Origin: the human T2T-CHM13v2.0 reference genome, Homo sapiens
DNA length: 64,000 nt
Direction: 5' to 3'
NCBI GenBank assembly: GCA_009914755.4
Contig: CP086569.2
Coordinates: forward strand, 11,904,001-11,968,000
Below, piece by piece: positions 1 to 64,000 of this stretch. A program made the position numbers and the translations under genes. A model generated the notes under the pieces. That model searched no databases. It had not been told where the DNA came from and saw only the letters and a list, made by a program, of their open reading frames with translations. Each line of letters starts with the position of its first letter. Positions within the stretch are counted from its first letter, which is position 1.

Positions 1-273
1 AGGAATGGAATGGAATGGAGTGGACTCAAAAGGAATGGACTCGAAAGGAATGGAGTCCAACCAAATTGAATGAAATGGATTGGAGTCGAACAGAATGGAA
101 TGGAATGGAATGAACTCGACTGGAGTAGAGAGGAATGTAAAGGAATAGAATGGAATGTAATCAAATGGATTGCAAGTGAATGGAATCAAAAATAATAGAA
201 AGGAATGGAGTGTAAAGGGATCATATTGAATATAATGGAATGGAATGGAATTTAATGGAATGGAGTTGAAGGA
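1..273 (+). repeat. 3' tail of an upstream 5.5-kb HOR copy (its 1.38-kb-like terminal subunit); truncated by the window edge.
   Basis: Positions 1-273 align with the ends of later 5.5-kb copies (e.g. 5590-5865, 11150-11423: '...ggaatggagtggactcaaaaggaatggactcgaaaggaatggagtccaaccaaattgaat...'). The phase marker ATGGACAGGAATGTAATGGACTCCAATGG begins at 274. Confidence 0.7.
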
Positions 274-29347: not shown

Positions 29348-32300
29348 ATGGACAGGAATGTAATGGACTCCAATGCAATGGAATGGATCAAAATGGATTT
29401 GAACAGATTGGAATCGAACGGAATGGAATGCAATGGAATGGAATGGACTCGAATGGAGAAGAGACAAATGGAATGGAAACGAATTCAATGGAATTGAAAA
29501 GAATAGAATGGAATGGCGTGTAATGGTAAGATACTAAATGGAATGGAATTGAATGGAATGTAGTGGAATGGACCCAAATGTAATGCACTCGAATGGAATA
29601 TACTCAAATAGAATGGAATCGAAAGGAAAGGTCTCAAATGGAATTTATTCAATACAATGGAATCGAATGGAATGCAATAGAATGGAAAGGAATCGAATGT
29701 AATGGAATCAAATAGAATGGAACAGAATGGAATGGACTGCCATAGAACGGACTGCAGTGTAATGGATTGAATTCTAATTCATTCAAATGGAATGGAATTG
29801 AATGGAATGGAATCCAATGGAATGGATAGGATTGTACTGGAATGGAATAGCATGGAATGCAACGGAGTGGAATGGAGTTGAATGAAGTGGAATGGAATCG
29901 ATTGGAATGGAATCAAATGGAATGGACGGGAATGGAATGGACTGGAAGAGAACAGACTCGAATATAATGGATTGCAATGTAATTGATTCAAATGGAATGG
30001 AATCGAATGGAATGTAATAAAATTGAAGGGATTGGAGTTCAATGCAATGGAATAGAATGGAATGCAAAGGAAAAGAAAGGCACGGAGTGAAATCGAGTGT
30101 AATGGAATCGAATGGAATGAAATCGAATGGAATGGACTCAAAAGAAATGGACGAGGGACAAAACGGAATCGAACTGATTGGAATCGAATGGAACGCAATG
30201 GAATGCAATGGACTCCATTGGATGGGAGTAGAACGGATTGGAATGAAATGGAATGGAAAGGAATAGAATGGAATGGAAAGGAATGGAAGGTAACTGAAAG
30301 ATATCGAACGGATTGGAAAGGAATGGAATGGACGCTAATGGAATGGAATGGAATTCAACAGAAACGAATGGAATGGACTGGAGTGAAATGGAGTCGAATG
30401 TAATTGACTGGAGAGGAATGGACTCGAAAGGAATGGACTCGAATAGAATGGACTGGAATGGATTGTACTCGAATGGAGTGGAAAGGAATAAAATGGATTC
30501 CACCAGATTGGAATGGAACAGAATGTAATGGAATGGAATGGAATGCAATGGAATGGCTCGAATGGAAGGGAGTCGAATGCAATGGAAGGGAAAGGAAAGG
30601 AATTGAATGGAATTGAAAGTAATAGAATTAAAAGGAGTGCAAAGGAAAGATATGGAATGGAATGGATCGAAAAGAAATAGAATGGAATGGACAGGAATGG
30701 AATGGAATAGAATGGAATAGACTGGCGTGCAATTAAAACGAATGGAATGGAAACGAATGGAATGGAATGGAAAGGAATGGAGTAGAATAAATACTATGGA
30801 ATGGAATGGAATGGAATGGAATGGAATGGAATGGAGGCGAAAGGAAAACAATGGAGTGGAATGTCACCGAATGGAATGATATGGAATGGAAAGGAATGGA
30901 TACGAATGGAATGGAATAGAAAGGAACGGAAAGGTAAAGAATGGAATGGAATCGGACAGAATGGAATGTAATGTAATGGAGTCGAATGGAAAATAATCGA
31001 GTAGAATGATATCGAATGGAATGGAATTTTTGGAATGGAATGGAATGGAATGGACTCGAATGGCATGTACTCAAATGGATTAGAATAGAATGGAATGGAA
31101 CTAAACGTAATGAACTCGAATGAATGGACACAAATAGAATGGAAGAGAAAGAAATGGTATTGAACGGATTTTATTCGAATAGAATGGAATTCAATGGAAT
31201 GCAACAGTGTGGCATGGAATCAAATGGAATGGAATCGAATGGAATGGACCCGAGTGGAATGGACTCACATAGAACAGCCTCGAATGTAATGGATGACAAT
31301 GTATTAGATTCGAAAGGACTGAAATCGAATGGAATGTAATCAAATAGAACGGAATTGAATGCATGGAATGGCATAGAAAGTAATGCAATGGAATGGAATA
31401 GACTGGAAAGGAATGGAATCGGATGGAATGTAATGAAATGTAATGGAAGGAATGCTATGGAATGGAATGGAATGGAATACAATGGGACAGTGTATAATGG
31501 AGTGCAATGGATTTAAGTGGAATATAGTCAAAAGGAATGAAATAGAATGGAATTCAATATAATGGAATGGCATCCAATGGCAAGGAATGGAGCGGACTCC
31601 AATGGAAACGACATGAAAGGAATATAGTATAATGGAATGGCATTGAACGAAATGGAATGCAATGGAGTTAAAAGGTAAAATATCGAATGGAAAAGAATTG
31701 AATGGACTCGAATGGAATATAATGGAATGGAATGGACTCGAATGGAATGTACTAGAGTTGAATGGAATCGAATGGAATGGAAAACAATGGAAAGGAAAGG
31801 AAGGGAATTGAAAGGAAAGGAATAGAATGGAATGGAATCGGATGGAACAGAATTGAATGGAATGGAAACTAAAGGAATAGAATAGAAAGGAATGGCATTG
31901 AATGGAATAGAAATGAATGGAATCAGATGGAACAGAAAGGAATGGAATAGAATCGAATGGAATGGCATCGAATGGATTGGAATGGAATGTAATGGAATGG
32001 AATAGAAAGGAATGGAATGGACTCAAATGGAATGTACTCAAATGGAATAGAATAGAATGGAATGGAAGTAAATATAATGGACTCGAGTGGAATGGATTGG
32101 AATAAATTGGAATTGAATATATTGGATTTGAATGGAAAGGAATGGAATGGAATGGAATGGAATGGATTCGAATGGAATGGAACGAATTGGAATGTAATTG
32201 AATGGAGTCGAAAACAGTAGAAAGAAAAGAAGTTTAATCAAATGATATCGAATGGAATTGAATGGAATGTACGTGAATGGAATGGACTGGAATGGAATGG

Positions 32301-34867
32301 AATGACATGTAATGGGAACAAAAGGAATGGAATCGAATGAAATGGAATTGAATGGAATAGAAAGGAATAGAATGAAATGGAGTTTAATGGAAAGATATTA
32401 AAAGTAATGGAATGGAATTGAGTGGACACAAATGGAATGGACTGGAATGGAAAGGACTCGAATGAAATGGACCGCATTAGAATGGACTCGAATGGAACGG
32501 ATTGGTGTGGAATGGTCTCGAATGGATGGGAAACGAATGGAATGGAAAAGAATAGAATGGAATGTAATCAAATGGAACGAAATGGAATGGAATGGATTCG
32601 ACTGGAACAGAATTGAATGGAGTGGAATTGAATACAATGGAATGCAATCGAATGGAATGGACACGAATGGAATAGAATGAAATGAAATAGCATAGAATGG
32701 AATGGAATGGAATGGAATGGAATGGCATGGAATGGAATGGAGTGAAATGGATTGGAATGGGATGGGCCCAAAGTAATGGACTAAAATAAAAGAGACTCAA
32801 ATAGAATGAATTGTAAAGAAACGGTCTCGAATGTAATTTATTCGAATAGAATGATATTGAATGGAATGCAATAGTATGGAATGGTATCGAATAGAATGGA
32901 ATGGAATGGAACTTAATGGAGTGCATTTGAACGGACTCAAATGCAATAAATTGCACTATAATTGATTCAAATGGAATGGAATCGAATAGAATGTAAACAA
33001 ATGGAATGGAAGGCAATGCAATGGAAAGGAATCGAATGAAATGGAATAAATGGGATGGAATCGAATGGAAAGGACGCGAATATAATGGAGTGTTAAGGAA
33101 AGGTCTCGAATCGAATTCATTCCAATAGAATGGAATCGAATGGAATGCAATACTATTGAATCAAATCGAATGGAATGGAATTGAATGGAATGGACAGGAA
33201 TGGAATGAACTGGAAGTGAATGGACAAGAACATAATATATTGCAATGTAATTTATTCAAATGGAATGGAATGCAATAGAATGGAATGGACGCGATTGCAA
33301 TGGACTGGAGTGGAATGGACTGCAATGGAATTTAAACGAATATAATGCAATGGAACGGAAAGCAAAGGAATCTACCGGAATGGAATCGAACGGAACAGAA
33401 AGGAATGGAATGGAATGGAGTGGAATGGACTCGAATGGAATGTATTCAAATGTAATGGACCGGAAAGGAATGGAATCCAAAGGAATGGAATTGAATGGAA
33501 TCAAAAGGAATAGAAAGGAATAGAGTGTAATTGAATGATATCGAATGGAAGGGAATGGAATGAAGTCGAATGGAATGCACTGGAATGGAATGGACTCAAT
33601 CAGAACGGACTGGAGAGGAATGTACACAAATGGAATGGAAACGAATGGAATGGAATGAAATGGAATGGAATGCAATGGAATTGAAAGGAACGGAATCAAA
33701 AGGAATGGAATGGAATGGATTGGAATAGAATGGATTCAAATAAAATAGAATCGATTGGAATGGTATTGAATGGAAGGGACTTGAATGGAATGGAAAGCAA
33801 TGGAAGATATTGGAATCGAATGGCATCGAATGAAATGGAATGGAACGGAATGGAACGGACCCGAATGGAATGGAATGGACTCAAATGTAATGGACTCGAA
33901 TGGAATCGAATGAAATATAATAGACTCGAAAGGAATGGCCTCGAGCGGAATTTATTTGAATAGAATGGAATCAAATGGAATAGAATAGTATTGAATGGAA
34001 TCGAATGGAATGGAATCGAATGGAATGTAATCAAATAGAATGGAATGGAATTCAATATAATGGAGTAGAATGGAATGCATTGGAAAGGAGCAGAGTGGAA
34101 TCGAGTGGATTGGAATCGAGTGGAATGGAATCAAAGGGAACGAAATGGAATTGAATGGACTTGAATGGAATTGAGTCGAAAGGAATTGACTCGAAAGGAA
34201 CGGACTGGAAGGAAAAGGAATCAAATGGACAGGAATGGAATGGAATGGACTCGAATGGATTGGAGTCAAATGCAAACGCATCGAATGGAATGGATTCAAA
34301 TGGAATGCAATTGAATGGAATAGAAAGGAAGAGAATGGAATTGAGAGTAATGGAAAGATATCGATTGGAATGAAATGGAATGGAAAGGAAGTGAATGGAA
34401 AGGAATGGACTCGAAAGAAATGGATTGGAATGGAATGGTCTCCAATGGAATGGACTGGAGTGGAATGGAATCGAATGGAATGAAAAGAATGGAACGGAAT
34501 GGAACGTAAAGGAATAGAATGTTATGGAATCCGATTGGACAGAATGGAATGGAATGGAGTTTCATAAAATGGAGTCGAATAGATTGGCATCAAAAGGAAT
34601 GGAATGGAATGGAGTGGACTCAAAAGGAATGGACTCCAAAGGAATGGAGTCGAAGCAAATTGAATCAAATGGATTGGAGTCGAACAGAATGGAATGGAAT
34701 GGAATGAACTCGACTGGAGTAGAGAGGAATGTAAAGGAATAGAATGGAATGTAATCAAATGGATTGCAAGTGAATGGAATCAAAAATAATAGAAAGGAAT
34801 GGAGTGTAAAGGGATGATATGGAATAAAATGGAATGGAATGGAATTTAATGGAATGGAGTCGAAGGA
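29348..34867 (+). repeat. 5.5-kb HOR copy U4 (5520 bp). A-type member of the ~11-kb dimeric super-repeat.
   Basis: Marker at 29348 and 34868. A-type variants shared with U6: 'ctcgaatggaagggagtcgaatgcaatggaagggaaagg' (~30555), 'atcgaattcattccaatag' (~33105), 'tagaatggaatggaattcaatataatgg' (~34035). Confidence 0.8.
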
Positions 34868-37800
34868 ATGGACAGGAATGTAATGGACTCCAATGGAATG
34901 GAATGGATCAAAATGGATTTGAACAGATTGGAATCGAACGGAATGGAATGCAATGGAATGGAATGGACTCGAAAGGAGAAGAGACAAATGGAATGGAAAC
35001 GAATTCAATGGAATTGAAAAGAATAGAATGGAATGGCCTGTAATGGTAAGATACTAAATGGAATGGAATTGAATGGAATGGAATGGAATGGACCCAAATG
35101 TAATGCACTCGAATGGAATATACTCAAATAGAATGGAATCGAAAGGAAAGGTCTCAAATGGAATTTATTCAATACAATGGAATCGAATGGAATGCAATAG
35201 AATGGAAAGGAATCGAATGTAATGGAATCAAATAGAATGGACCAGAATGGAATGGACTGCCATAGAACGGACTGCAGTTTAATGGATTGAATTCTAATTC
35301 ATTCAAATGGAATGGAATTGAATGGAATGGAATCCAATGGAATGGATAGGATTGTACTGGAATGGAATAGCATGGAATACAACGGAGTGGAATGGAGTTG
35401 AATGAAGTGGAATGGAATCGATTGGAATGGAATCAAATGGAATGGACGGGAATGGAATGGACTGGAAGAGAACAGACTCGAATATAATGGATTGCAATGT
35501 AATTGATTCAAATGGAATGGAATCGAATGGAATGTAATAAAATTGAAGGGACTGGAGTTCAATGCAATGGAATAGAATGGAATGCAAAGGAAACGAAAGG
35601 CACGGAGTGAAATCGAGTGTAATGGAATCGAATGGAATGAAATGGAATGGAATGGACTCAAAAGAAATGGACGAGGGACAAAACGGAATCGAACTGATTG
35701 GAATCGAATGGAACGGAATGGAATGGAATGGACTCCATTGGATGGGAGTAGAACGGATTGGAATGAAATGGAATGGAAAGGAATAGAATGGAATGGAATG
35801 GAATGGAAGATAACGGAAAGATATCGAACGGATTGGAAAGGAATGGAATGGACGCTAATGGAATGGAATGGAACTCAAGAGAAACGAATGGAATGGACTG
35901 GAGTGAAATGGAGTCGAATGTAATTGACTGGAGAGGGATGGACTCGAAAGGAATGGACTCGAATAGAATGGACTGGAATGGATTGTACTCGAATGGAGTG
36001 GAAAGGAATAAAATGGATTCCACCAGATTGGAATGGAACAGAATGTAATGGAATGGAATGGAATGCAATGGAATGGCTCGAGTGGAATGGAGCCGAATGC
36101 AATGGAAGAGAAAGGAAAGGAATTGAATGGAATTGAAAGTAATAGAATTAAAAGGAGTGCAAAGGAAAGATATGGAATGGAATGGATCGAAAAGAAATAG
36201 AATGGAATGGACAGGAATGGAATGGAATAGAATGGAATAGACTGGCGTGCAATTAAAACGAATGGAATGGAAACGAATGGAATGGAATGGAAAGGAATGG
36301 AGTAGAATAAATACTATGGAATGGAATGGAATGGAATGGAATGGAATGGAATGGAATGGAGGCGAAAGGAAAACAATGGAGTGGAATGTCACCGAATGGA
36401 ATGATATGGAATGGAAAGGAATGGATACGAATGGAATGGAATAGAAAGGAACGGAAAGGTAAAGAATGGAATGGAATCGGACAGAATGGAATGTAATGTA
36501 ATGGAGTCGAATGGAAAATAATCGAGTAGAATGATATCGAATGGAATGGAATTTTTGGAATGGAATGGAATGGAATGGACTCGAATGGCATGTACTCAAA
36601 TGGATTAGAATAGAATGGAATGGAACTAAACGTAATGAACTCGAATGAATGGACACAAATAGAATGGAAGAGAAAGAAATGGTATTGAACGGATTTTATT
36701 CGAATAGAATGGAATTCAATGGAATGCAACAGTGTGGCATGGAATCAAATGGAATGGAATCGAATGGAATGGACCCGAGTGGAATGGACTCACATAGAAC
36801 AGCCTCGAATATAATGGATGACAATGTATTAGATTCGAAAGGACTGAAATCGAATGGAATGTAATCAAATAGAACGGAATTGAATGCATGGAATGGCATA
36901 GAAAGTAATGCAATGGAATGGAATAGACTGGAAAGGAATGGAATCGGATGGAATGTAATGAAATGTAATGGAAGGAATGCTATGGAATGGAATGGAATGG
37001 AATACAATGGGACAGTGTATAATGGAGTGCAATGGATTTAAGTGGAATATAGTCAAAAGGAATGAAATAGAATGGAATTCAATATAATGGAATGGCATCC
37101 AATGGCAAGGAATGGAGCGGACTCCAATGGAAACGACATGAAAGGAATATAGTATAATGGAATGGCATTGAACGAAATGGAATGCAATGGAGTTAAAAGG
37201 TAAAATATCGAATGGAAAAGAATTGAATGGACTCGAATGGAATATAATGGAATGGAATGGACTCGAATGGAATGTACTAGAGTTGAATGGAATCGAATGG
37301 AATGGAAAACAATGGAAAGGAAAGGAAGGGAATTGAAAGGAAAGGAATAGAATGGAATGGAATCGGATGGAACAGAATTGAATGGAATGGAAACTAAAGG
37401 AATAGAATAGAAAGGAATGGCATTGAATGGAATAGAAATGAATGGAATCAGATGGAACAGAAAGGAATGGAATAGAATCGAATGGAATGGCATCGAATGG
37501 ATTGGAATGGAATGTAATGGAATGGAATAGAAAGGAATGGAATGGACTCAAATGGAATGTACTCAAATGGAATAGAATAGAATGGAATGGAAGTAAATAT
37601 AATGGACTCGAGTGGAATGGATTGGAATAAATTGGAATTGAATATATTGGATTTGAATGGAAAGGAATGGAATGGAATGGAATGGAATGGAATGGAATGG
37701 AATGGATTCGAATGGAATGGAACGAATTGGAATGTAATTGAATGGAGTCGAAAACAGTAGAAAGAAAAGAAGTTTAATCAAATGATATCGAATGGAATTG

Positions 37801-40407
37801 AATGGAATGTACGTGAATGGAATGGACTGGAATGGAATGGAATGACATGTAATGGGAACAAAAGGAATGGAATCGAATGAAATGGAATTGAATGGAATAG
37901 AAAGGAATAGAATGAAATGGAGTTTAATGGAAAGATATTAAAAGTAATGGAATGGAATTGAGTGGACACAAATGGAATGGACTGGAATGGAAAGGACTCG
38001 AATGAAATGGACCGCATTAGAATGGACTCGAATGGAACGGATTGGTGTGGAATGGTCTCGAATGGATGGGAAACGAATGGAATGGAAAAGAATAGAATGG
38101 AATGTAATCAAATGGAACGAAATGGAATGGAATGGATTCGACTGGAACAGAATTGAATGGAGTGGAATTGAATACAATGGAATGCAATCGAATGGAATGG
38201 ACACGAATGGAATAGAATGAAATGAAATAGCATAGAATGGAATGGAATGGAATGGAATGGAATGGCATGGAATGGAATGGAGTGAAATGGATTGGAATGG
38301 GATGGGCCCAAAGTAATGGACTAAAATAAAAGAGACTCAAATAGAATGAATTGTAAAGAAACGGTCTCGAATGTAATTTATTCGAATAGAATGATATTGA
38401 ATGGAATGCAATAGTATGGAATGGTATCGAATAGAATGGAATGGAATGGAACTTAATGGAGTGCATTTGAACGGACTCAAATGCAATAAATTGCACTATA
38501 ATTGATTCAAATGGAATGGAATCGAATAGAATGTAAACAAATGGAATGGAAGGCAATGCAATGGAAAGGAATCGAATGAAATGGAATAAATGGGATGGAA
38601 TCGAATGGAAAGGACGCGAATATAATGGAGTGTTAAGGAAAGGTCTCGAATCGAATTTATTCCAATAGAATGGAATCGAATGGAATGCAATACTATTGAA
38701 TCAAATCGAATGGAATGGAATTGAATGGAATGGACAGGAATGGAATGAACTGGAAGTGAATGGACAAGAACATAATATATTGCAATGTAATTTATTCAAA
38801 TGGAATGGAATGCAATAGAATGGAATGGACGCGATTGCAATGGACTGGAGTGGAATGGACTGCAATGGAATTTAAACGAATATAATGCAATGGAACGGAA
38901 AGCAAAGGAATCTACCGGAATGGAATCGAACGGAACAGAAAGGAATGGAATGGAATGGAGTGGAATGGACTCGAATGGAATGTATTCAAATGTAATGGAC
39001 CGGAAAGGAATGGAATCCAAAGGAATGGAATTGAATGGAATCAAAAGGAATAGAAAGGAATAGAGTGTAATTGAATGATATCGAATGGAAGGGAATGGAA
39101 TGAAGTCGAATGGAATGCACTGGAATGGAATGGACTCAATCAGAACGGACTGGAGAGGAATGTACACAAATGGAATGGAAACGAATGGAATGGAATGAAA
39201 TGGAATGGAATGCAATGGAATTGAAAGGAACGGAATCAAAAGGAATGGAATGGAATGGATTGGAATAGAATGGATTCAAATAAAATAGAATCGATTGGAA
39301 TGGTATTGAATGGAAGGGACTTGAATGGAATGGAAAGCAATGGAAGATATTGGAATCGAATGGCATCGAATGAAATGGAATGGAACGGAATGGAACGGAC
39401 CCGAATGGAATGGAATGGACTCAAATGTAATGGACTCGAATGGAATCGAATGAAATATAATAGACTCGAAAGGAATGGCCTCGAGCGGAATTTATTTGAA
39501 TAGAATGGAATCAAATGGAATAGAATAGTATTGAATGGAATCGAATGGAATGGAATCGAATGGAATGTAATCAAATAGAATGGAACGGAATTCAATATAA
39601 TGGAGTAGAATGGAATGCATTGGAAAGGAGCAGAGTGGAATCGAGTGGATTGGAATCGAGTGGAATGGAATCAAAGGGAACGAAATGGAATTGAATGGAC
39701 TTGAATGGAATTGAGTCGAAAGGAATTGACTCGAAAGGAACGGACTGGAAGGAAAAGGAATCAAATGGACAGGAATGGAATGGAATGGACTCGAATGGAT
39801 TGGAGTCAAATGCAAACGCATCGAATGGAATGGATTCAAATGGAATGCAATTGAATGGAATAGAAAGGAAGAGAATGGAATTGAGAGTAATGGAAAGATA
39901 TCGATTGGAATGAAATGGAATGGAAAGGAAGTGAATGGAAAGGAATGGACTCGAAAGAAATGGATTGGAATGGAATGGTCTCCAATGGAATGGACTGGAG
40001 TGGAATGGAATCGAATGGAATGAAAAGAATGGAACGGAATGGAACGTAAAGGAATAGAATGTTATGGAATCCGATTGGACAGAATGGAATGGAATGGAGT
40101 TTCATAAAATGGAGTCGAATAGATTGGCATCAAAAGGAATGGAATGGAATGGAGTGGACTCAAAAGGAATGGACTCCAAAGGAATGGAGTCGAAGCAAAT
40201 TGAATCAAATGGATTGGAGTCGAACAGAATGGAATGGAATGGAATGAACTCGACTGGAGTAGAGAGGAATGTAAAGGAATAGAATGGAATGTAATCAAAT
40301 GGATTGCAAGTGAATGGAATCAAAAATAATAGAAAGGAATGGAGTGTAAAGGGATGATATGGAATAAAATGGAATGGAATGGAATTTAATGGAATGGAGT
40401 CGAAGGA
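34868..40407 (+). repeat. 5.5-kb HOR copy U5 (5540 bp). B-type member of the dimeric super-repeat.
   Basis: B-type variants shared with U7: 'ctcgagtggaatggagccgaatgcaatggaagagaaagg' (~36075), 'atcgaatttattccaatag' (~38645), 'tagaatggaacggaattcaatataatgg' (~39575). One extra GGAAT in the run at ~36310. Confidence 0.8.
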
Positions 40408-43400
40408 ATGGACAGGAATGTAATGGACTCCAATGGAATGGAATGGATCAAAATGGATTTGAACAGATTGGAATCGAACGGAATGGAATGCAATGGAATG
40501 GAATGGACTCGAAAGGAGAAGAGACAAATGGAATGGAAACGAATTCAATGGAATTGAAAAGAATAGAATGGAATGGCCTGTAATGGTAAGATACTAAATG
40601 GAATGGAATTGAATGGAATGGAATGGAATGGACCCAAATGTAATGCACTCGAATGGAATATACTCAAATAGAATGGAATCGAAAGGAAAGGTCTCAAATG
40701 GAATTTATTCAATACAATGGAATCGAATGGAATGCAATAGAATGGAAAGGAATCGAATGTAATGGAATCAAATAGAATGGACCAGAATGGAATGGACTGC
40801 CATAGAACGGACTGCAGTTTAATGGATTGAATTCTAATTCATTCAAATGGAATGGAATTGAATGGAATGGAATCCAATGGAATGGATAGGATTGTACTGG
40901 AATGGAATAGCATGGAATACAACGGAGTGGAATGGAGTTGAATGAAGTGGAATGGAATCGATTGGAATGGAATCAAATGGAATGGACGGGAATGGAATGG
41001 ACTGGAAGAGAACAGACTCGAATATAATGGATTGCAATGTAATTGATTCAAATGGAATGGAATCGAATGGAATGTAATAAAATTGAAGGGACTGGAGTTC
41101 AATGCAATGGAATAGAATGGAATGCAAAGGAAACGAAAGGCACGGAGTGAAATCGAGTGTAATGGAATCGAATGGAATGAAATGGAATGGAATGGACTCA
41201 AAAGAAATGGACGAGGGACAAAACGGAATCGAACTGATTGGAATCGAATGGAACGGAATGGAATGGAATGGACTCCATTGGATGGGAGTAGAACGGATTG
41301 GAATGAAATGGAATGGAAAGGAATAGAATGGAATGGAATGGAATGGAAGATAACGGAAAGATATCGAACGGATTGGAAAGGAATGGAATGGACGCTAATG
41401 GAATGGAATGGAACTCAAGAGAAACGAATGGAATGGACTGGAGTGAAATGGAGTCGAATGTAATTGACTGGAGAGGGATGGACTCGAAAGGAATGGACTC
41501 GAATAGAATGGACTGGAATGGATTGTACTCGAATGGAGTGGAAAGGAATAAAATGGATTCCACCAGATTGGAATGGAACAGAATGTAATGGAATGGAATG
41601 GAATGCAATGGAATGGCTCGAATGGAAGGGAGTCGAATGCAATGGAAGGGAAAGGAAAGGAATTGAATGGAATTGAAAGTAATAGAATTAAAAGGAGTGC
41701 AAAGGAAAGATATGGAATGGAATGGATCGAAAAGAAATAGAATGGAATGGACAGGAATGGAATGGAATAGAATGGAATAGACTGGCGTGCAATTAAAACG
41801 AATGGAATGGAAACGAATGGAATGGAATGGAAAGGAATGGAGTAGAATAAATACTATGGAATGGAATGGAATGGAATGGAATGGAATGGAATGGAGGCGA
41901 AAGGAAAACAATGGAGTGGAATGTCACCGAATGGAATGATATGGAATGGAAAGGAATGGATACGAATGGAATGGAATAGAAAGGAACGGAAAGGTAAAGA
42001 ATGGAATGGAATCGGACAGAATGGAATGTAATGTAATGGAGTCGAATGGAAAATAATCGAGTAGAATGATATCGAATGGAATGGAATTTTTGGAATGGAA
42101 TGGAATGGAATGGACTCGAATGGCATGTACTCAAATGGATTAGAATAGAATGGAATGGAACTAAACGTAATGAACTCGAATGAATGGACACAAATAGAAT
42201 GGAAGAGAAAGAAATGGTATTGAACGGATTTTATTCGAATAGAATGGAATTCAATGGAATGCAACAGTGTGGCATGGAATCAAATGGAATGGAATCGAAT
42301 GGAATGGACCCGAGTGGAATGGACTCACATAGAACAGCCTCGAATGTAATGGATGACAATGTATTAGATTCGAAAGGACTGAAATCGAATGGAATGTAAT
42401 CAAATAGAACGGAATTGAATGCATGGAATGGCATAGAAAGTAATGCAATGGAATGGAATAGACTGGAAAGGAATGGAATCGGATGGAATGTAATGAAATG
42501 TAATGGAAGGAATGCTATGGAATGGAATGGAATGGAATACAATGGGACAGTGTATAATGGAGTGCAATGGATTTAAGTGGAATATAGTCAAAAGGAATGA
42601 AATAGAATGGAATTCAATATAATGGAATGGCATCCAATGGCAAGGAATGGAGCGGACTCCAATGGAAACGACATGAAAGGAATATAGTATAATGGAATGG
42701 CATTGAACGAAATGGAATGCAATGGAGTTAAAAGGTAAAATATCGAATGGAAAAGAATTGAATGGACTCGAATGGAATATAATGGAATGGAATGGACTCG
42801 AATGGAATGTACTAGAGTTGAATGGAATCGAATGGAATGGAAAACAATGGAAAGGAAAGGAAGGGAATTGAAAGGAAAGGAATAGAATGGAATGGAATCG
42901 GATGGAACAGAATTGAATGGAATGGAAACTAAAGGAATAGAATAGAAAGGAATGGCATTGAATGGAATAGAAATGAATGGAATCAGATGGAACAGAAAGG
43001 AATGGAATAGAATCGAATGGAATGGCATCGAATGGATTGGAATGGAATGTAATGGAATGGAATAGAAAGGAATGGAATGGACTCAAATGGAATGTACTCA
43101 AATGGAATAGAATAGAATGGAATGGAAGTAAATATAATGGACTCGAGTGGAATGGATTGGAATAAATTGGAATTGAATATATTGGATTTGAATGGAAAGG
43201 AATGGAATGGAATGGAATGGAATGGAATGGAATGGATTCGAATGGAATGGAACGAATTGGAATGTAATTGAATGGAGTCGAAAACAGTAGAAAGAAAAGA
43301 AGTTTAATCAAATGATATCGAATGGAATTGAATGGAATGTACGTGAATGGAATGGACTGGAATGGAATGGAATGACATGTAATGGGAACAAAAGGAATGG

Positions 43401-45937
43401 AATCGAATGAAATGGAATTGAATGGAATAGAAAGGAATAGAATGAAATGGAGTTTAATGGAAAGATATTAAAAGTAATGGAATGGAATTGAGTGGACACA
43501 AATGGAATGGACTGGAATGGAAAGGACTCGAATGAAATGGACCGCATTAGAATGGACTCGAATGGAACGGATTGGTGTGGAATGGTCTCGAATGGATGGG
43601 AAACGAATGGAATGGAAAAGAATAGAATGGAATGTAATCAAATGGAACGAAATGGAATGGAATGGATTCGACTGGAACAGAATTGAATGGAGTGGAATTG
43701 AATACAATGGAATGCAATCGAATGGAATGGACACGAATGGAATAGAATGAAATGAAATAGCATAGAATGGAATGGAATGGAATGGAATGGAATGGCATGG
43801 AATGGAATGGAGTGAAATGGATTGGAATGGGATGGGCCCAAAGTAATGGACTAAAATAAAAGAGACTCAAATAGAATGAATTGTAAAGAAACGGTCTCGA
43901 ATGTAATTTATTCGAATAGAATGATATTGAATGGAATGCAATAGTATGGAATGGTATCGAATAGAATGGAATGGAATGGAACTTAATGGAGTGCATTTGA
44001 ACGGACTCAAATGCAATAAATTGCACTATAATTGATTCAAATGGAATGGAATCGAATAGAATGTAAACAAATGGAATGGAAGGCAATGCAATGGAAAGGA
44101 ATCGAATGAAATGGAATAAATGGGATGGAATCGAATGGAAAGGACGCGAATATAATGGAGTGTTAAGGAAAGGTCTCGAATCGAATTCATTCCAATAGAA
44201 TGGAATCGAATGGAATGCAATACTATTGAATCAAATCGAATGGAATGGAATTGAATGGAATGGACAGGAATGGAATGAACTGGAAGTGAATGGACAAGAA
44301 CATAATATATTGCAATGTAATTTATTCAAATGGAATGGAATGCAATAGAATGGAATGGACGCGATTGCAATGGACTGGAGTGGAATGGACTGCAATGGAA
44401 TTTAAACGAATATAATGCAATGGAACGGAAAGCAAAGGAATCTACCGGAATGGAATCGAACGGAACAGAAAGGAATGGAATGGAATGGAGTGGAATGGAC
44501 TCGAATGGAATGTATTCAAATGTAATGGACCGGAAAGGAATGGAATCCAAAGGAATGGAATTGAATGGAATCAAAAGGAATAGAAAGGAATAGAGTGTAA
44601 TTGAATGATATCGAATGGAAGGGAATGGAATGAAGTCGAATGGAATGCACTGGAATGGAATGGACTCAATCAGAACGGACTGGAGAGGAATGTACACAAA
44701 TGGAATGGAAACGAATGGAATGGAATGAAATGGAATGGAATGCAATGGAATTGAAAGGAACGGAATCAAAAGGAATGGAATGGAATGGATTGGAATAGAA
44801 TGGATTCAAATAAAATAGAATCGATTGGAATGGTATTGAATGGAAGGGACTTGAATGGAATGGAAAGCAATGGAAGATATTGGAATCGAATGGCATCGAA
44901 TGAAATGGAATGGAACGGAATGGAACGGACCCGAATGGAATGGAATGGACTCAAATGTAATGGACTCGAATGGAATCGAATGAAATATAATAGACTCGAA
45001 AGGAATGGCCTCGAGCGGAATTTATTTGAATAGAATGGAATCAAATGGAATAGAATAGTATTGAATGGAATCGAATGGAATGGAATCGAATGGAATGTAA
45101 TCAAATAGAATGGAATGGAATTCAATATAATGGAGTAGAATGGAATGCATTGGAAAGGAGCAGAGTGGAATCGAGTGGATTGGAATCGAGTGGAATGGAA
45201 TCAAAGGGAACGAAATGGAATTGAATGGACTTGAATGGAATTGAGTCGAAAGGAATTGACTCGAAAGGAACGGACTGGAAGGAAAAGGAATCAAATGGAC
45301 AGGAATGGAATGGAATGGACTCGAATGGATTGGAGTCAAATGCAAACGCATCGAATGGAATGGATTCAAATGGAATGCAATTGAATGGAATAGAAAGGAA
45401 GAGAATGGAATTGAGAGTAATGGAAAGATATCGATTGGAATGAAATGGAATGGAAAGGAAGTGAATGGAAAGGAATGGACTCGAAAGAAATGGATTGGAA
45501 TGGAATGGTCTCCAATGGAATGGACTGGAGTGGAATGGAATCGAATGGAATGAAAAGAATGGAACGGAATGGAACGTAAAGGAATAGAATGTTATGGAAT
45601 CCGATTGGACAGAATGGAATGGAATGGAGTTTCATAAAATGGAGTCGAATAGATTGGCATCAAAAGGAATGGAATGGAATGGAGTGGACTCAAAAGGAAT
45701 GGACTCCAAAGGAATGGAGTCGAAGCAAATTGAATCAAATGGATTGGAGTCGAACAGAATGGAATGGAATGGAATGAACTCGACTGGAGTAGAGAGGAAT
45801 GTAAAGGAATAGAATGGAATGTAATCAAATGGATTGCAAGTGAATGGAATCAAAAATAATAGAAAGGAATGGAGTGTAAAGGGATGATATGGAATAAAAT
45901 GGAATGGAATGGAATTTAATGGAATGGAGTCGAAGGA
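40408..45937 (+). repeat. 5.5-kb HOR copy U6 (5530 bp). A-type, near-identical to U4 at the alternating sites.
   Basis: See U4. ORFs 41198..41911 (237 aa) and 30138..30851 (237 aa) are near-identical. Confidence 0.8.
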
Positions 45938-48900
45938 ATGGACAGGAATGTAATGGACTCCAATGGAATGGAATGGATCAAAATGGATTTGAACAGATTG
46001 GAATCGAACGGAATGGAATGCAATGGAATGGAATGGACTCGAAAGGAGAAGAGACAAATGGAATGGAAACGAATTCAATGGAATTGAAAAGAATAGAATG
46101 GAATGGCCTGTAATGGTAAGATACTAAATGGAATGGAATTGAATGGAATGGAATGGAATGGACCCAAATGTAATGCACTCGAATGGAATATACTCAAATA
46201 GAATGGAATCGAAAGGAAAGGTCTCAAATGGAATTTATTCAATACAATGGAATCGAATGGAATGCAATAGAATGGAAAGGAATCGAATGTAATGGAATCA
46301 AATAGAATGGACCAGAATGGAATGGACTGCCATAGAACGGACTGCAGTTTAATGGATTGAATTCTAATTCATTCAAATGGAATGGAATTGAATGGAATGG
46401 AATCCAATGGAATGGATAGGATTGTACTGGAATGGAATAGCATGGAATACAACGGAGTGGAATGGAGTTGAATGAAGTGGAATGGAATCGATTGGAATGG
46501 AATCAAATGGAATGGACGGGAATGGAATGGACTGGAAGAGAACAGACTCGAATATAATGGATTGCAATGTAATTGATTCAAATGGAATGGAATCGAATGG
46601 AATGTAATAAAATTGAAGGGACTGGAGTTCAATGCAATGGAATAGAATGGAATGCAAAGGAAACGAAAGGCACGGAGTGAAATCGAGTGTAATGGAATCG
46701 AATGGAATGAAATGGAATGGAATGGACTCAAAAGAAATGGACGAGGGACAAAACGGAATCGAACTGATTGGAATCGAATGGAACGGAATGGAATGGAATG
46801 GACTCCATTGGATGGGAGTAGAACGGATTGGAATGAAATGGAATGGAAAGGAATAGAATGGAATGGAATGGAATGGAAGATAACGGAAAGATATCGAACG
46901 GATTGGAAAGGAATGGAATGGACGCTAATGGAATGGAATGGAACTCAAGAGAAACGAATGGAATGGACTGGAGTGAAATGGAGTCGAATGTAATTGACTG
47001 GAGAGGGATGGACTCGAAAGGAATGGACTCGAATAGAATGGACTGGAATGGATTGTACTCGAATGGAGTGGAAAGGAATAAAATGGATTCCACCAGATTG
47101 GAATGGAACAGAATGTAATGGAATGGAATGGAATGCAATGGAATGGCTCGAGTGGAATGGAGCCGAATGCAATGGAAGAGAAAGGAAAGGAATTGAATGG
47201 AATTGAAAGTAATAGAATTAAAAGGAGTGCAAAGGAAAGATATGGAATGGAATGGATCGAAAAGAAATAGAATGGAATGGACAGGAATGGAATGGAATAG
47301 AATGGAATAGACTGGCGTGCAATTAAAACGAATGGAATGGAAACGAATGGAATGGAATGGAAAGGAATGGAGTAGAATAAATACTATGGAATGGAATGGA
47401 ATGGAATGGAATGGAATGGAATGGAATGGAGGCGAAAGGAAAACAATGGAGTGGAATGTCACCGAATGGAATGATATGGAATGGAAAGGAATGGATACGA
47501 ATGGAATGGAATAGAAAGGAACGGAAAGGTAAAGAATGGAATGGAATCGGACAGAATGGAATGTAATGTAATGGAGTCGAATGGAAAATAATCGAGTAGA
47601 ATGATATCGAATGGAATGGAATTTTTGGAATGGAATGGAATGGAATGGACTCGAATGGCATGTACTCAAATGGATTAGAATAGAATGGAATGGAACTAAA
47701 CGTAATGAACTCGAATGAATGGACACAAATAGAATGGAAGAGAAAGAAATGGTATTGAACGGATTTTATTCGAATAGAATGGAATTCAATGGAATGCAAC
47801 AGTGTGGCATGGAATCAAATGGAATGGAATCGAATGGAATGGACCCGAGTGGAATGGACTCACATAGAACAGCCTCGAATGTAATGGATGACAATGTATT
47901 AGATTCGAAAGGACTGAAATCGAATGGAATGTAATCAAATAGAACGGAATTGAATGCATGGAATGGCATAGAAAGTAATGCAATGGAATGGAATAGACTG
48001 GAAAGGAATGGAATCGGATGGAATGTAATGAAATGTAATGGAAGGAATGCTATGGAATGGAATGGAATGGAATACAATGGGACAGTGTATAATGGAGTGC
48101 AATGGATTTAAGTGGAATATAGTCAAAAGGAATGAAATAGAATGGAATTCAATATAATGGAATGGCATCCAATGGCAAGGAATGGAGCGGACTCCAATGG
48201 AAACGACATGAAAGGAATATAGTATAATGGAATGGCATTGAACGAAATGGAATGCAATGGAGTTAAAAGGTAAAATATCGAATGGAAAAGAATTGAATGG
48301 ACTCGAATGGAATATAATGGAATGGAATGGACTCGAATGGAATGTACTAGAGTTGAATGGAATCGAATGGAATGGAAAACAATGGAAAGGAAAGGAAGGG
48401 AATTGAAAGGAAAGGAATAGAATGGAATGGAATCGGATGGAACAGAATTGAATGGAATGGAAACTAAAGGAATAGAATAGAAAGGAATGGCATTGAATGG
48501 AATAGAAATGAATGGAATCAGATGGAACAGAAAGGAATGGAATAGAATCGAATGGAATGGCATCGAATGGATTGGAATGGAATGTAATGGAATGGAATAG
48601 AAAGGAATGGAATGGACTCAAATGGAATGTACTCAAATGGAATAGAATAGAATGGAATGGAAGTAAATATAATGGACTCGAGTGGAATGGATTGGAATAA
48701 ATTGGAATTGAATATATTGGATTTGAATGGAAAGGAATGGAATGGAATGGAATGGAATGGAATGGAATGGAATGGATTCGAATGGAATGGAACGAATTGG
48801 AATGTAATTGAATGGAGTCGAAAACAGTAGAAAGAAAAGAAGTTTAATCAAATGATATCGAATGGAATTGAATGGAATGTACGTGAATGGAATGGACTGG

Positions 48901-51477
48901 AATGGAATGGAATGACATGTAATGGGAACAAAAGGAATGGAATCGAATGAAATGGAATTGAATGGAATAGAAAGGAATAGAATGAAATGGAGTTTAATGG
49001 AAAGATATTAAAAGTAATGGAATGGAATTGAGTGGACACAAATGGAATGGACTGGAATGGAAAGGACTCGAATGAAATGGACCGCATTAGAATGGACTCG
49101 AATGGAACGGATTGGTGTGGAATGGTCTCGAATGGATGGGAAACGAATGGAATGGAAAAGAATAGAATGGAATGTAATCAAATGGAACGAAATGGAATGG
49201 AATGGATTCGACTGGAACAGAATTGAATGGAGTGGAATTGAATACAATGGAATGCAATCGAATGGAATGGACACGAATGGAATAGAATGAAATGAAATAG
49301 CATAGAATGGAATGGAATGGAATGGAATGGAATGGCATGGAATGGAATGGAGTGAAATGGATTGGAATGGGATGGGCCCAAAGTAATGGACTAAAATAAA
49401 AGAGACTCAAATAGAATGAATTGTAAAGAAACGGTCTCGAATGTAATTTATTCGAATAGAATGATATTGAATGGAATGCAATAGTATGGAATGGTATCGA
49501 ATAGAATGGAATGGAATGGAACTTAATGGAGTGCATTTGAACGGACTCAAATGCAATAAATTGCACTATAATTGATTCAAATGGAATGGAATCGAATAGA
49601 ATGTAAACAAATGGAATGGAAGGCAATGCAATGGAAAGGAATCGAATGAAATGGAATAAATGGGATGGAATCGAATGGAAAGGACGCGAATATAATGGAG
49701 TGTTAAGGAAAGGTCTCGAATCGAATTTATTCCAATAGAATGGAATCGAATGGAATGCAATACTATTGAATCAAATCGAATGGAATGGAATTGAATGGAA
49801 TGGACAGGAATGGAATGAACTGGAAGTGAATGGACAAGAACATAATATATTGCAATGTAATTTATTCAAATGGAATGGAATGCAATAGAATGGAATGGAC
49901 GCGATTGCAATGGACTGGAGTGGAATGGACTGCAATGGAATTTAAACGAATATAATGCAATGGAACGGAAAGCAAAGGAATCTACCGGAATGGAATCGAA
50001 CGGAACAGAAAGGAATGGAATGGAATGGAGTGGAATGGACTCGAATGGAATGTATTCAAATGTAATGGACCGGAAAGGAATGGAATCCAAAGGAATGGAA
50101 TTGAATGGAATCAAAAGGAATAGAAAGGAATAGAGTGTAATTGAATGATATCGAATGGAAGGGAATGGAATGAAGTCGAATGGAATGCACTGGAATGGAA
50201 TGGACTCAATCAGAACGGACTGGAGAGGAATGTACACAAATGGAATGGAAACGAATGGAATGGAATGAAATGGAATGGAATGCAATGGAATTGAAAGGAA
50301 CGGAATCAAAAGGAATGGAATGGAATGGATTGGAATAGAATGGATTCAAATAAAATAGAATCGATTGGAATGGTATTGAATGGAAGGGACTTGAATGGAA
50401 TGGAAAGCAATGGAAGATATTGGAATCGAATGGCATCGAATGAAATGGAATGGAACGGAATGGAACGGACCCGAATGGAATGGAATGGACTCAAATGTAA
50501 TGGACTCGAATGGAATCGAATGAAATATAATAGACTCGAAAGGAATGGCCTCGAGCGGAATTTATTTGAATAGAATGGAATCAAATGGAATAGAATAGTA
50601 TTGAATGGAATCGAATGGAATGGAATCGAATGGAATGTAATCAAATAGAATGGAACGGAATTCAATATAATGGAGTAGAATGGAATGCATTGGAAAGGAG
50701 CAGAGTGGAATCGAGTGGATTGGAATCGAGTGGAATGGAATCAAAGGGAACGAAATGGAATTGAATGGACTTGAATGGAATTGAGTCGAAAGGAATTGAC
50801 TCGAAAGGAACGGACTGGAAGGAAAAGGAATCAAATGGACAGGAATGGAATGGAATGGACTCGAATGGATTGGAGTCAAATGCAAACGCATCGAATGGAA
50901 TGGATTCAAATGGAATGCAATTGAATGGAATAGAAAGGAAGAGAATGGAATTGAGAGTAATGGAAAGATATCGATTGGAATGAAATGGAATGGAAAGGAA
51001 GTGAATGGAAAGGAATGGACTCGAAAGAAATGGATTGGAATGGAATGGTCTCCAATGGAATGGACTGGAGTGGAATGGAATCGAATGGAATGAAAAGAAT
51101 GGAACGGAATGGAACGTAAAGGAATAGAATGTTATGGAATCCGATTGGACAGAATGGAATGGAATGGAGTTTCATAAAATGGAGTCGAATAGATTGGCAT
51201 CAAAAGGAATGGAATGGAATGGAGTGGACTCAAAAGGAATGGACTCCAAAGGAATGGAGTCGAAGCAAATTGAATCAAATGGATTGGAGTCGAACAGAAT
51301 GGAATGGAATGGAATGAACTCGACTGGAGTAGAGAGGAATGTAAAGGAATAGAATGGAATGTAATCAAATGGATTGCAAGTGAATGGAATCAAAAATAAT
51401 AGAAAGGAATGGAGTGTAAAGGGATGATATGGAATAAAATGGAATGGAATGGAATTTAATGGAATGGAGTCGAAGGA
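45938..51477 (+). repeat. 5.5-kb HOR copy U7 (5540 bp). B-type, essentially identical to U5.
   Basis: See U5. ORFs 46728..47726 (332 aa) and 35658..36656 (332 aa) are identical. Landmark at 46378-46393. Confidence 0.8.
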
Positions 51478-63862: not shown

Positions 63863-64000
63863 ATGGACAGGAATGTAATGGACTCCAATGGAATGGAATG
63901 GATCAAAATGGATTTGAACAGATTGGAATCGAACGGAATGGAATGCAATGAAATGGAATGGACTCGATCAGAACGGACTGGAGAGGAATGTACACAAATG
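63863..64000 (+). repeat. Partial 1.378-kb subunit copy d6, truncated by the window end.
   Basis: Begins with the marker ATGGACAGGAATGTAATGGACTCCAATGG and continues as the other copies do. Confidence 0.65.

What the first reader, a model, noticed from the sequence alone, without database searches (positions are those of the whole stretch)
29348..51477. ~11.07-kb dimeric super-repeat: alternating A/B variants across four near-identical 5.5-kb copies
Copies U4 and U6 share one allele, and copies U5 and U7 share the other, at at least five independent sites. Examples: 'ctcgaatggaagggagtcgaatgc...ggaagggaaagg' versus 'ctcgagtggaatggagccgaatgc...ggaagagaaagg'; 'atcgaattcattccaatag' versus 'atcgaatttattccaatag'; 'tagaatggaatggaattcaatataatgg' versus 'tagaatggaacggaattcaatataatgg'; MNSIPFY versus MNSVPFY; and IEFHSILFD versus IEFRSILFD in the ORF track. 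The 332-aa ORF is present in U5 and U7, and the 237-aa ORF in U4 and U6. This indicates that the most recent amplification unit was a 2 x 5.5-kb dimer, one hierarchy level above the 5.5-kb HOR.
Basis: seen in the sequence. Interest (0 to 1): 0.6.

Follow-up and report, generated by a model that had tools for sequence, protein, structure and literature searches.

The report
Recent 11-kb tandem duplication in satellite III
Inside a (GGAAT)n satellite array, an 11.07-kb piece holding two already near-identical 5.5-kb repeat units was copied once, head to tail, giving an A-B-A-B pattern; this is real, but it is the ordinary way satellite arrays grow.

Summary
The alternation is real. The cause is one clean tandem duplication. 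Window 30418-41528 equals 41478-52598 with only two differences in 11,111 bp (one SNV and one (GGAAT)2 indel). Both flanks diverge by about 2% immediately. The identical span equals one period, so there are two copies, not a periodic 11-kb array.

An older 5.53-kb duplication (span 30590-36173) lies nested inside it.
- The young block is 30418-52598, not 29348-51477.
- U4's first 1,070 bp is older sequence, with 19 private SNVs.
- Three of the five "independent" examples are the same SNV (34046).
- The 4-SNV cluster is older inter-copy variation, captured because the two duplications have different breakpoints.
- The 237/332-aa ORFs are stop-free translations of ATTCC repeats, and their length difference comes from a 5-bp indel.

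The 5.53-kb unit is a composite of a 4.15-kb segment (X) and one 1.375-kb module (M). M also forms arrays of its own on both sides. The sequence is HSat3-type and carries the HSat3A3 (human Y-specific) diagnostic 24-mer once per module. This is an ordinary nested tandem repeat that expanded locally, so interest is low.

The parts
30418..41477 (+). Left copy of the 11.07-kb tandem duplication (11,060 bp). It comprises the tail of the older unit Cm1, then unit C1 (A-type), then most of unit C2 (B-type).
   Evidence: the lag-11,060/11,070 alignment has its last left-flank difference at 30417/41477. Inside there are only a 10-bp indel and one SNV.
41478..52547 (+). Right copy of the 11.07-kb tandem duplication (11,070 bp). 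Near-identity continues by chance to 52598.
   Evidence: the first right-flank difference is at 41529/52599, followed by about 2-3% divergence.
41478..41529 (+). Interval that contains the duplication junction. The matching outer breakpoint intervals are 30418-30469 and 52548-52599. The junction is clean, with no inserted bases.
   Evidence: the three intervals are identical to one another up to the first flanking difference, and the alignment is continuous through the junction.
30590..36173 (+). Span of near-identity at lag 5.52-5.54 kb once the right 11-kb copy is removed. This is the footprint of the older 5.53-kb duplication (5,584 bp, about one period). Its left breakpoint lies in about 30590-30654.
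   Evidence: dense differences end at 30589/36109 and resume at 36174/52784. Inside there are 3-4 SNVs plus a 5-bp and a 15-bp pentamer indel.
33118..33118 (+). A/B SNV. C in the A copies (33118, 44188) and T in the B copies (38658, 49728). C is the derived allele.
   Evidence: all older copies (4125, 9684, 27593, 55265) have T.
34046..34046 (+). A/B SNV inside the M module. T in the A copies (34046, 45116) and C in the B copies (39586, 50656). T is derived (CpG to TpG).
   Evidence: every other M module in the window that matched the search pattern has C.
30562..30589 (+). Four-SNV cluster. AGTG at 30562-30589 and 41622-41649. GTCA at 36082-36109, 47152-47179 and 52692-52719. This is older variation between neighbouring units, not new A/B mutations.
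   Evidence: older copies at 7068 and 24998 have ATTA, and the independent contig L007 has GTCA.
36316..36336 (+). (ATGGA/GGAAT) run holding a 5-bp indel. The extra unit is present in C1, C3 and C4 and absent in Cm1 (30796-30811) and C2 (41856-41871). It shifts the frame and makes the ORF 332 aa instead of 237 aa.
32114..32138 (+). Pure (GGAAT)n tract of variable length: 5 units in C1, 8 in C2 (37664-37678 extra), 7 in C3 (43199-43208 extra) and 8 in C4. The 10-bp C1/C3 difference arose after the 11-kb duplication.
36811..36811 (+). The only SNV between the two 11-kb copies: A at 36811 and G at 47881.
29393..51522 (+). X: 29393-33541, 34913-39081, 40453-44611, 45983-50151. M: 33537-34912, 39077-40452, 44607-45982, 50147-51522.
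10098..23835 (+). Array of ten 1.375-kb M modules on the left of the (X+M)x6 block. A second M array starts at 55684 and runs to the end of the window.
35658..36656 (-). 332-aa ORF (copy at 46728-47726), with the 237-aa ORFs at 30138-30851 and 41198-41911. All are stop-free (IPFHS)n-like translations of ATTCC repeats, not genes.
   Evidence: One search gives the sequences. One search finds no Pfam family above its cut-off. Searches find no such product on record.

Best explanation
The region is part of a (GGAAT)n-derived satellite III array. Its local repeat unit is a 5.53-kb composite: a 4.15-kb segment X plus one 1.375-kb module M.

Two nested tandem duplications produced the four near-identical units.

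1. **Event 1.** One unit length (5.53 kb, left breakpoint about 30590-30654) was duplicated. The two daughter copies then acquired two substitutions, both in the A copy (33118 T>C and 34046 CpG>TpG), and two pentamer-slippage indels.
2. **Event 2.** A two-unit length (11.06 kb, left breakpoint 30418-30469) containing both daughter copies was duplicated once. This turned A-B into A-B-A-B. Because event 2 started 120-240 bp to the left of event 1, it also copied a piece of the older neighbouring unit. That is why an old 4-SNV cluster now alternates too.
3. **Since event 2.** Only one substitution (36811) and one (GGAAT)2 slippage (43199-43208) have occurred.

The duplication history is shown by the sequence. 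The mechanism is inferred: most likely out-of-register homologous exchange, that is unequal sister-chromatid exchange shifted by one unit and then by two units, between ~98%-identical neighbouring units.

The feature has no function of its own. It is a snapshot of how satellite arrays expand and how longer periodicities are born.
For: - **Span equals the period.** At lag 11,060/11,070, positions 30418-41528 equal 41478-52598 with 1 SNV and 1 indel in 11,111 bp. The flanks carry 25 SNVs in 1,418 bp on the left and a similar or higher density on the right. The identical span is the period plus 41-51 bp, as expected for a single tandem duplication.
- **Clean junction.** The junction lies inside a 51-bp stretch shared by all three breakpoint intervals.
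- **Partitions.** 8: 0: 0 for the predicted partition.
- **Lag alternation.** The lag runs 5540/5530/5540.
- **Recurrence.** 24-mer recurrence is 99.8% at 11.07 kb against 97.9% at 5.53 kb.
- **Older event.** With the right copy removed, a second span of near-identity (30590-36173, 5,584 bp, about one 5.53-kb period) appears with sharp borders.
- **Polarity.** The A alleles at 33118 and 34046 are derived. The cluster alleles pre-exist in older copies and in an independent contig.
- **Real unit.** X+M is a genuinely propagated unit. M modules attached to X form their own subfamily, and an independent metagenome contig closes on itself at 5,564 bp.
- **Published context.** HSat2,3 'nested tandem repeats' evolve and expand hyper-locally (bioRxiv 10.1101/2021.07.12.452052, read). 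Y-chromosome satellite blocks evolve by unequal exchange (10.1101/2022.12.01.518724).
Against: - No reads are available, so a false duplication made by the assembler cannot be excluded from the sequence alone.
- The mechanism cannot be told from the sequence. Unequal exchange and replication template switching both give a clean homology-flanked tandem duplication.
- The left breakpoint of event 1 has an alternative placement at 30418-30454, with span 30418-35988. That would make the 4-SNV cluster a post-duplication change. It is less parsimonious and fits poorly with GTCA occurring elsewhere, but it is not excluded.
- The species and chromosome assignment rests on one diagnostic 24-mer.
Confidence: 0.85

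Rival explanations
1. Assembly artefact. The assembler falsely duplicated one 11-kb A-B segment, and the two differences between the copies are consensus errors, one of them in a pure pentamer run.
For: The two copies differ by only one SNV and one 10-bp indel inside a (GGAAT)n run. Satellite arrays are error-prone to assemble, and Y satellite regions are routinely flagged or excluded from variant calling (10.64898/2026.06.03.729890).
Against: The borders are exactly what a biological tandem duplication gives. An older nested event with the same signature sits inside it. The A/B differences and the flanking divergence are enough to anchor reads of 15 kb or more. No reads could be examined.
Confidence: 0.07
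2. The same duplication history, but produced by replication-based template switching or slippage (a FoSTeS/MMBIR-like process) rather than by unequal homologous exchange.
For: Both routes give a clean head-to-tail duplication with homology at the junction. A short inverted repeat (TGGAAT...ATTCCA at 30497 and its copies), rare in this strand-pure satellite, lies between the two left breakpoints.
Against: The register shifts are exact multiples of the unit, and the junction lies in 51 bp or more of perfect identity within ~98%-identical units. That is the expected substrate for homologous exchange. The two breakpoints lying close together has about a 9% probability by chance, which is not significant.
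Confidence: 0.2
3. An established 11.07-kb higher-order period (a true dimeric super-repeat) of which the window shows a part.
For: The A-B-A-B order holds and the recurrence at 11.07 kb exceeds that at 5.53 kb.
Against: There are only two copies. The units on both sides (Cm1, C5, D4, D5) are 2-4.5% diverged from the young copies and from each other, with no alternating pattern. Near-identity at the 11-kb lag stops after exactly one period. Before the two events this block held only three X+M units.
Confidence: 0.03
4. Four copies arose by some other route, and gene conversion between alternate copies created the A/B pattern.
For: Gene conversion is reported in Y heterochromatin (10.64898/2026.06.03.729890). 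One site shows the same G>A state at two distant copies (36811 and 7801).
Against: It would need several concordant conversion tracts covering sites spread over 5.5 kb, plus coincident sharp borders exactly one period apart. There are zero sites with any conflicting partition.
Confidence: 0.03

Closest known systems
Nested tandem repeats (NTRs) of human satellite 3, as defined by Altemose et al. (bioRxiv 10.1101/2021.07.12.452052; Science 2022)
   Same: Multi-kilobase repeat units built on a diverged (CATTC/GGAAT)n background. The periodicity varies along the array, and units 'evolve and expand hyper-locally'. The window shows all of these features.
   Different: In this window the 5.53-kb unit is visibly a composite of a 4.15-kb segment and one copy of a 1.375-kb module that also forms its own arrays. 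I found no published description of this particular unit in the papers I could read.
HSat3 subfamily A3 (Y-chromosome-specific; Altemose et al. 2014, PMC4022460), probably the pericentromeric Yq HSat3/DYZ17 region
   Same: The subfamily's example 24-mer CTTTACACTCCATTCCTTTCTATT occurs 19 times exactly, once per M module. None of the other 12 subfamily 24-mers occurs exactly. DYZ17 varies from 0.86 to 1.74 Mb among men (10.1101/2022.12.01.518658), which fits ongoing duplication and deletion.
   Different: The assignment rests on a single k-mer. Chromosome, species and exact array could not be checked, because no human or primate reference is available in these tools. The best independent contigs are only about 96% identical.
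Recent nested duplications inside alpha-satellite HOR arrays (for example DXZ1 in CHM13, same Altemose paper) and the classical unequal-crossover model of satellite evolution (Smith 1976; from my own knowledge)
   Same: Successive tandem duplications of different lengths, one inside the other, detected as blocks of near-identity. This process creates longer periodicities from shorter ones.
   Different: The satellite family is different and the scale is much smaller: 5.5 and 11 kb against tens to hundreds of kb.
DYZ1, the ~3.6-kb HSat3 (A6) nested tandem repeat of Yq12
   Same: A Y-linked, pentamer-derived nested tandem repeat that evolves by unequal exchange.
   Different: The subfamily marker (3A6 24-mer) is absent. 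The unit lengths are 1.375 and 5.53 kb rather than 3.6 kb, and there is no interleaved HSat1B/DYZ2.

Membership tests
Human satellite 3 (HSat3) | Tandem array derived from the pentamer CATTC/GGAAT, strand-pure over long distances | tested here: met
   TRF reports one array over 2-63962 with period 10 (GGAATGGAAT) or 15. There are about 120 GGAAT and 0-1 ATTCC per 2 kb across the whole window.
Human satellite 3 (HSat3) | Not HSat2: lacks the HSat2-type CATTCGATTCCATTCGATGAT-like units | tested here: met
   ATCATCGAATGG has 0 hits. The HSat2 example 24-mers have 0 hits even with 2 mismatches.
HSat3 subfamily A3 | Carries subfamily-specific 24-mers (Table 1 of PMC4022460) | tested here: met
   19 exact hits spaced at the M-module period. 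The other 12 subfamily 24-mers have 0 exact hits. Only one k-mer per subfamily was available to test.
HSat3 subfamily A3 | Located on the human Y chromosome | not testable with these tools
   No human or primate genome is searchable here. The exact-ORF look-ups found nothing. The metagenome contigs that match carry no host label.
Nested tandem repeat (NTR) | Multi-kb unit repeated head to tail, not composed of a whole number of like-sized monomers | tested here: met
   Units of 1.375 kb and 5.53 kb. The 4.15-kb X part shows no 1.375-kb sub-periodicity and only pentamer-level similarity to M.
11.07-kb higher-order period ('super-repeat') | The period is repeated beyond a single duplication: three or more copies, or array-wide periodicity | tested here: not met
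   There are exactly two copies. Near-identity at this lag ends after one period, and the neighbouring units show no A/B alternation.
Single tandem duplication by out-of-register exchange | Near-identity at lag P spans about P bases, with sharp borders and a clean junction lying in homology | tested here: met
   11,111 bp of near-identity at P = 11,060-11,070. The same holds for the older event, with 5,584 bp at P = 5,520-5,540.
Single tandem duplication by out-of-register exchange | Produced by unequal sister-chromatid or homologous exchange rather than a replication error | not testable with these tools
   Testing this needs reciprocal deletion alleles in related haplotypes, or pedigree or Strand-seq data.
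Protein-coding gene (the 237/332-aa ORFs) | Recognisable domain or homologues, and composition not explained by the repeat | tested here: not met
   The ORFs are (IPFHS)-like pentapeptide runs from ATTCC. Pfam gives only sub-threshold low-complexity hits, 18.8 bits against a cut-off of 38.

The most novel reading that the evidence does not exclude
The 11.07-kb A-B dimer is the birth of a new, longer periodicity in a Y-linked satellite array. It would be polymorphic among human Y lineages and so usable as a datable structural marker. In addition, the two successive duplications began within about 240 bp of each other, next to a rare ATTCC-containing inverted repeat, because that spot is a preferred exchange or fork-stalling site in the unit.
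Probability: 0.1. Interest if true: 0.35.

Novelty: new member of a known kind. Interest (0 to 1): 0.15.

Why it matters
It matters little on its own. It is a clean, fully resolved example of how satellite arrays grow: a one-unit duplication followed by a two-unit duplication, with breakpoints mapped to about 50 bp and the order of mutations readable.

Such cases can be used to calibrate rates of unequal exchange against point mutation and pentamer slippage in heterochromatin. Here the counts are 1 SNV and 1 slippage since the last event, and about 3-4 SNVs and 2 slippages since the earlier one. If the locus is on the human Y, the case could also serve as a lineage marker.

It is also a caution for scans. 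Long ORFs and 'alleles' seen in translation inside (GGAAT)n satellites are by-products of a stop-free repeat.

Tried and rejected
- **Young-block phase from the 5.5-kb lag (start 30812).** Adding the flanking copies and aligning at the 11-kb lag showed that the true block starts at 30418.
- **A ~45.66-kb super-repeat.** Self-BLAST aligns 1-18421 with 45665-64000 at 95.4%. However, copies at that lag are no more alike than any other pair of old copies, at 95.4-97.8%. I reject it as a demonstrable recent duplication. It reflects the block order (X+M)n then (M)n.
- **The 5.53-kb unit as four diverged 1.375-kb modules.** Rejected. Only unit positions about 2740-4180 match M, at 97-99%. The rest matches only at the pentamer level.
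- **Looking for the source organism.** Three ORF products were looked up verbatim in public assemblies and none was found. One genome-contig scan with the cluster pattern gave 0 hits. The metagenome scan gave 13 contigs, at most about 96.5% identical and without host labels.
- **HSat3 review with the DYZ17 consensus.** It is not held in the library.
- **Other checks.** Rfam found no family in the window. One MAFFT run timed out and was repeated with lighter settings. One BLAST parse failed on empty output and was rerun.
- **Correction of my own recollection.** I first recalled that the CAACCCGAGT decamer marks A-type HSat3. Table 1 of PMC4022460 shows it in the B1 marker, so its absence here agrees with an A-type assignment.


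Full report
**What the window is.**
All 64 kb is one strand-pure (GGAAT)n-derived satellite. There are about 120 GGAAT and 0-1 ATTCC per 2 kb, the base composition is A 41%, G 30%, T 21% and C 8%, and there are no Ns. TRF reports a single array over 2-63962 with period 10 or 15. A 24-mer distance histogram shows longer periods of about 1.375 kb, 5.53 kb and 11.07 kb.

**Where each period holds.**
- A 4.15-kb segment, which I call X, alternates with a 1.375-kb module, M.
- The window reads: partial M (1-318), (X M)x2 (319-11468), nine more M (to 23835), (X M)x6 (23836-57049), then at least five more M (to 63907).
- The '5.5-kb HOR' is therefore a composite X+M unit. Only unit positions about 2740-4180 match M, at 97-99%. 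The rest resembles M only at the pentamer level.
- M modules attached to X form their own subfamily. They differ from one another at 22-37 sites, against about 45-70 from array-type M. X+M has therefore been propagated as a unit.
- An independent metagenome contig, L007, matches a whole unit at 96.5% and closes on itself through a 64-bp terminal overlap, giving a 5,564-bp circle. That is what a collapsed tandem unit looks like.

**Checking the observation.**
The four-way alignment gives 6 SNVs and 2 indels for (U4,U6)|(U5,U7), and none for either alternative partition.

Private changes are as follows:
- U4 has 19 SNVs, all within 29376-30417, plus a 10-bp indel.
- U5 has one SNV (36811).
- U6 and U7 have none.

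The quoted DNA strings are at the stated places, and the 237-aa and 332-aa ORFs exist. The 'tagaatggaa[t/c]gg' string, NSIPFY/NSVPFY and IEFHSILFD/IEFRSILFD all cover 34046/39586/45116/50656.

The independent loci are:
- the 4-SNV cluster (30562-30589 and its copies);
- 33118;
- 34046;
- a 5-bp indel (30796-30811 against 36316-36336);
- a variable (GGAAT)n tract at 32138.

Normalised 24-mer recurrence in the young block is 99.8% at 11.07 kb, 97.9% at 5.53 kb and 98.2% at 16.6 kb.

**What it really is.**
Aligning the sequence against itself at the 11-kb lag gives a very sharp picture.
- To the left there are 25 SNVs in 29000-30417 (1.8%), the last at 30417/41477.
- Then 30418-41528 equals 41478-52598 with only two differences: a GGAATGGAAT indel (present at 43199-43208) and one SNV (36811 A / 47881 G).
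- From 41529/52599 onward, divergence of 2-3% resumes.

The near-identical span is 11,111 bp and the lag is 11,060-11,070 bp. Identity at lag P that lasts for P bases, plus a few tens of bases of chance extension, is the signature of one tandem duplication of a P-long segment. The left breakpoint lies in 30418-30469, the junction in 41478-41529 and the right end in 52548-52599. These three intervals are identical to one another, and nothing is inserted at the junction. At the flanking divergence, about 200 differences would be expected in the span where one SNV is seen.

**The older event.**
I removed the right 11-kb copy and compared the result with itself at the 5.5-kb lag. A second span of near-identity appears at 30590-36173 (5,584 bp, for a period of 5,520-5,540). 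It is bounded on the left by the 4-SNV cluster and the ~2% divergence before it. On the right, dense differences start at 36174/52784.

Inside this span are:
- two SNVs shared by both dimers (33118 and 34046);
- one SNV at 35989/52599;
- the later SNV at 36811;
- two pentamer indels, of 5 bp and 15 bp.

The history is therefore a one-unit duplication followed by a two-unit duplication that contains it.

The within-window outgroups polarise the changes.
- 33118 C is derived: it occurs only in the A copies.
- 34046 T is derived and is a CpG>TpG change. The other M modules that matched the search pattern keep C.
- The cluster is older variation. The old copies at 7068 and 24998 carry ATTA, Cm1 carries AGTG and C1 carries GTCA. 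Contig L007 from another sample also carries GTCA.

The cluster alternates only because event 2 began 120-240 bp to the left of event 1 and so copied the tail of the older neighbouring unit. An alternative placement of event 1's left breakpoint (30418-30454) is possible. It needs four clustered substitutions after the duplication, so I prefer the placement above.

**Mechanism.**
The two-step tandem duplication history is shown by the sequence. The cause is inferred. Both register shifts are whole numbers of units (one, then two). The junctions lie in perfect identity within ~98%-identical neighbours. That is the expected outcome of out-of-register homologous exchange (unequal sister-chromatid exchange). 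The same process is invoked for Y-chromosome satellite blocks (10.1101/2022.12.01.518724) and for the 'hyper-local' expansion of HSat2,3 nested tandem repeats (10.1101/2021.07.12.452052).

Replication template switching cannot be excluded from the sequence. I put about 0.6 on unequal exchange and 0.2 on a replication route.

A two-unit shift needs no pre-existing 'dimer unit'. The A-B-A-B order simply follows from copying two slightly different neighbours.

There are only two copies. The units outside the block (Cm1, C5, D4, D5) are 2-4.5% from everything else and show no alternation. An 11-kb 'hierarchy level' is therefore not established. At most this is how one would begin.

Multi-unit relationships are also seen in the M-only array. 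For example, the modules at 15570 and 19704, three units apart, differ at 21 sites, against 38-56 for their adjacent neighbours. Events of this kind are evidently routine in this array.

**Relative ages (inference).**
There is 1 SNV in 11.06 kb since event 2, and about 3-4 SNVs in 5.5 kb since event 1, so event 1 is roughly 6-8 times older. If this is human Y DNA with about 0.9e-9 substitutions per bp per year (my own knowledge of published Y rates), the ages are on the order of 50 thousand years and 300-400 thousand years. The Poisson uncertainty is very wide, and satellite mutation rates are unknown.

**Identity.**
- HSat2-type motifs are absent.
- Thirteen subfamily example 24-mers are listed in Table 1 of Altemose et al. 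2014 (PMC4022460). Only the HSat3A3 one occurs exactly. It has 19 hits, once per M module.
- HSat3A3 is described as Y-specific.
- Hallast et al. report an HSat3 array next to the Y centromere, followed by the DYZ17 array. DYZ17 varies from 0.86 to 1.74 Mb among men.

I therefore think the window comes from that region of a human Y. This rests on one k-mer and could not be checked against a reference.

**The ORFs.**
GGAAT/ATTCC repeats are stop-free in several frames, and the ORFs read (IPFHS)-like pentapeptides. Pfam gives only sub-threshold low-complexity hits. No such products are on record, and Rfam finds nothing in the window. The 237/332-aa difference is the frame shift caused by the 5-bp indel.

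**Verdict.**
The coordinates need shifting to 30418-52598. This is an ordinary, well-resolved instance of nested tandem duplication in a satellite III nested tandem repeat: low interest, and a new instance of a known kind.

Noticed in passing
window 1-64000 (X at 319, 5911, 23836, 29393, 34913, 40453, 45983, 51523; M arrays 10098-23835 and 55684-63907): The 5.53-kb unit is a composite of a 4.15-kb segment X and one 1.375-kb module M. M also forms pure arrays between runs of X+M. M modules attached to X are a distinct subfamily from array-type M.
   Followed up: yes
window 1-18421 versus 45665-64000: Self-BLAST aligns these at 95.4% (lag 45.66 kb), suggesting a large super-unit of (X+M)n followed by (M)n. 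Copies at that lag are no closer than any other old pair, so a recent 45-kb duplication is not supported. An ancient one, later blurred, is possible.
   Followed up: partly
window 30418-30654, with ATTCC at 30497 (copies at 36017, 41557, 47087, 52627): The left breakpoints of the two successive duplications lie within about 240 bp of each other in a 5.5-kb unit, which has roughly a 9% probability by chance. They flank one of the rare ATTCC-containing short inverted repeats (TGGAAT...ATTCCA) in this strand-pure satellite.
   Followed up: no
window 11466-23835 (M-only array): Some M modules are closest to modules 2-4 units away rather than to their neighbours. Examples are 15570/19704 with 21 differences, 11466/14197 with 25 and 11466/16948 with 26. 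This hints at older multi-unit-register duplications. The right-hand M array (58409-63907) is younger and more homogeneous, with 16-25 differences.
   Followed up: partly
L001-L013 (metagenome contigs); L007 1-5628; L006 and L012: Thirteen public metagenome contigs carry a 42-mer of this satellite, presumably from host-DNA contamination. L007 is a self-closing 5,564-bp copy of X+M at 96.5% identity. L006 and L012 also self-close, at about 8.93 kb, and are a more divergent variant (83-88%) whose unit structure I did not resolve.
   Followed up: partly
window 36811 and 7801: The only SNV separating the two 11-kb copies (G>A at 36811) shows the same A at the homologous position of the old copy D5 (7801). 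All other copies have G. This is either recurrent mutation or a short conversion.
   Followed up: no
window 319-4549: The first X copy is much more diverged (91% to the young X) than the other old X copies (96-97.6%).
   Followed up: no
window 32114-32138, 37640-37678, 43175-43208, 48711-48748, 26583-26587: A pure (GGAAT)n tract inside X behaves like a microsatellite, with 5, 8, 7 and 8 units in the four young copies. It changed at least twice within the short time covered by the two duplications, so it evolves faster than point substitution here.
   Followed up: partly
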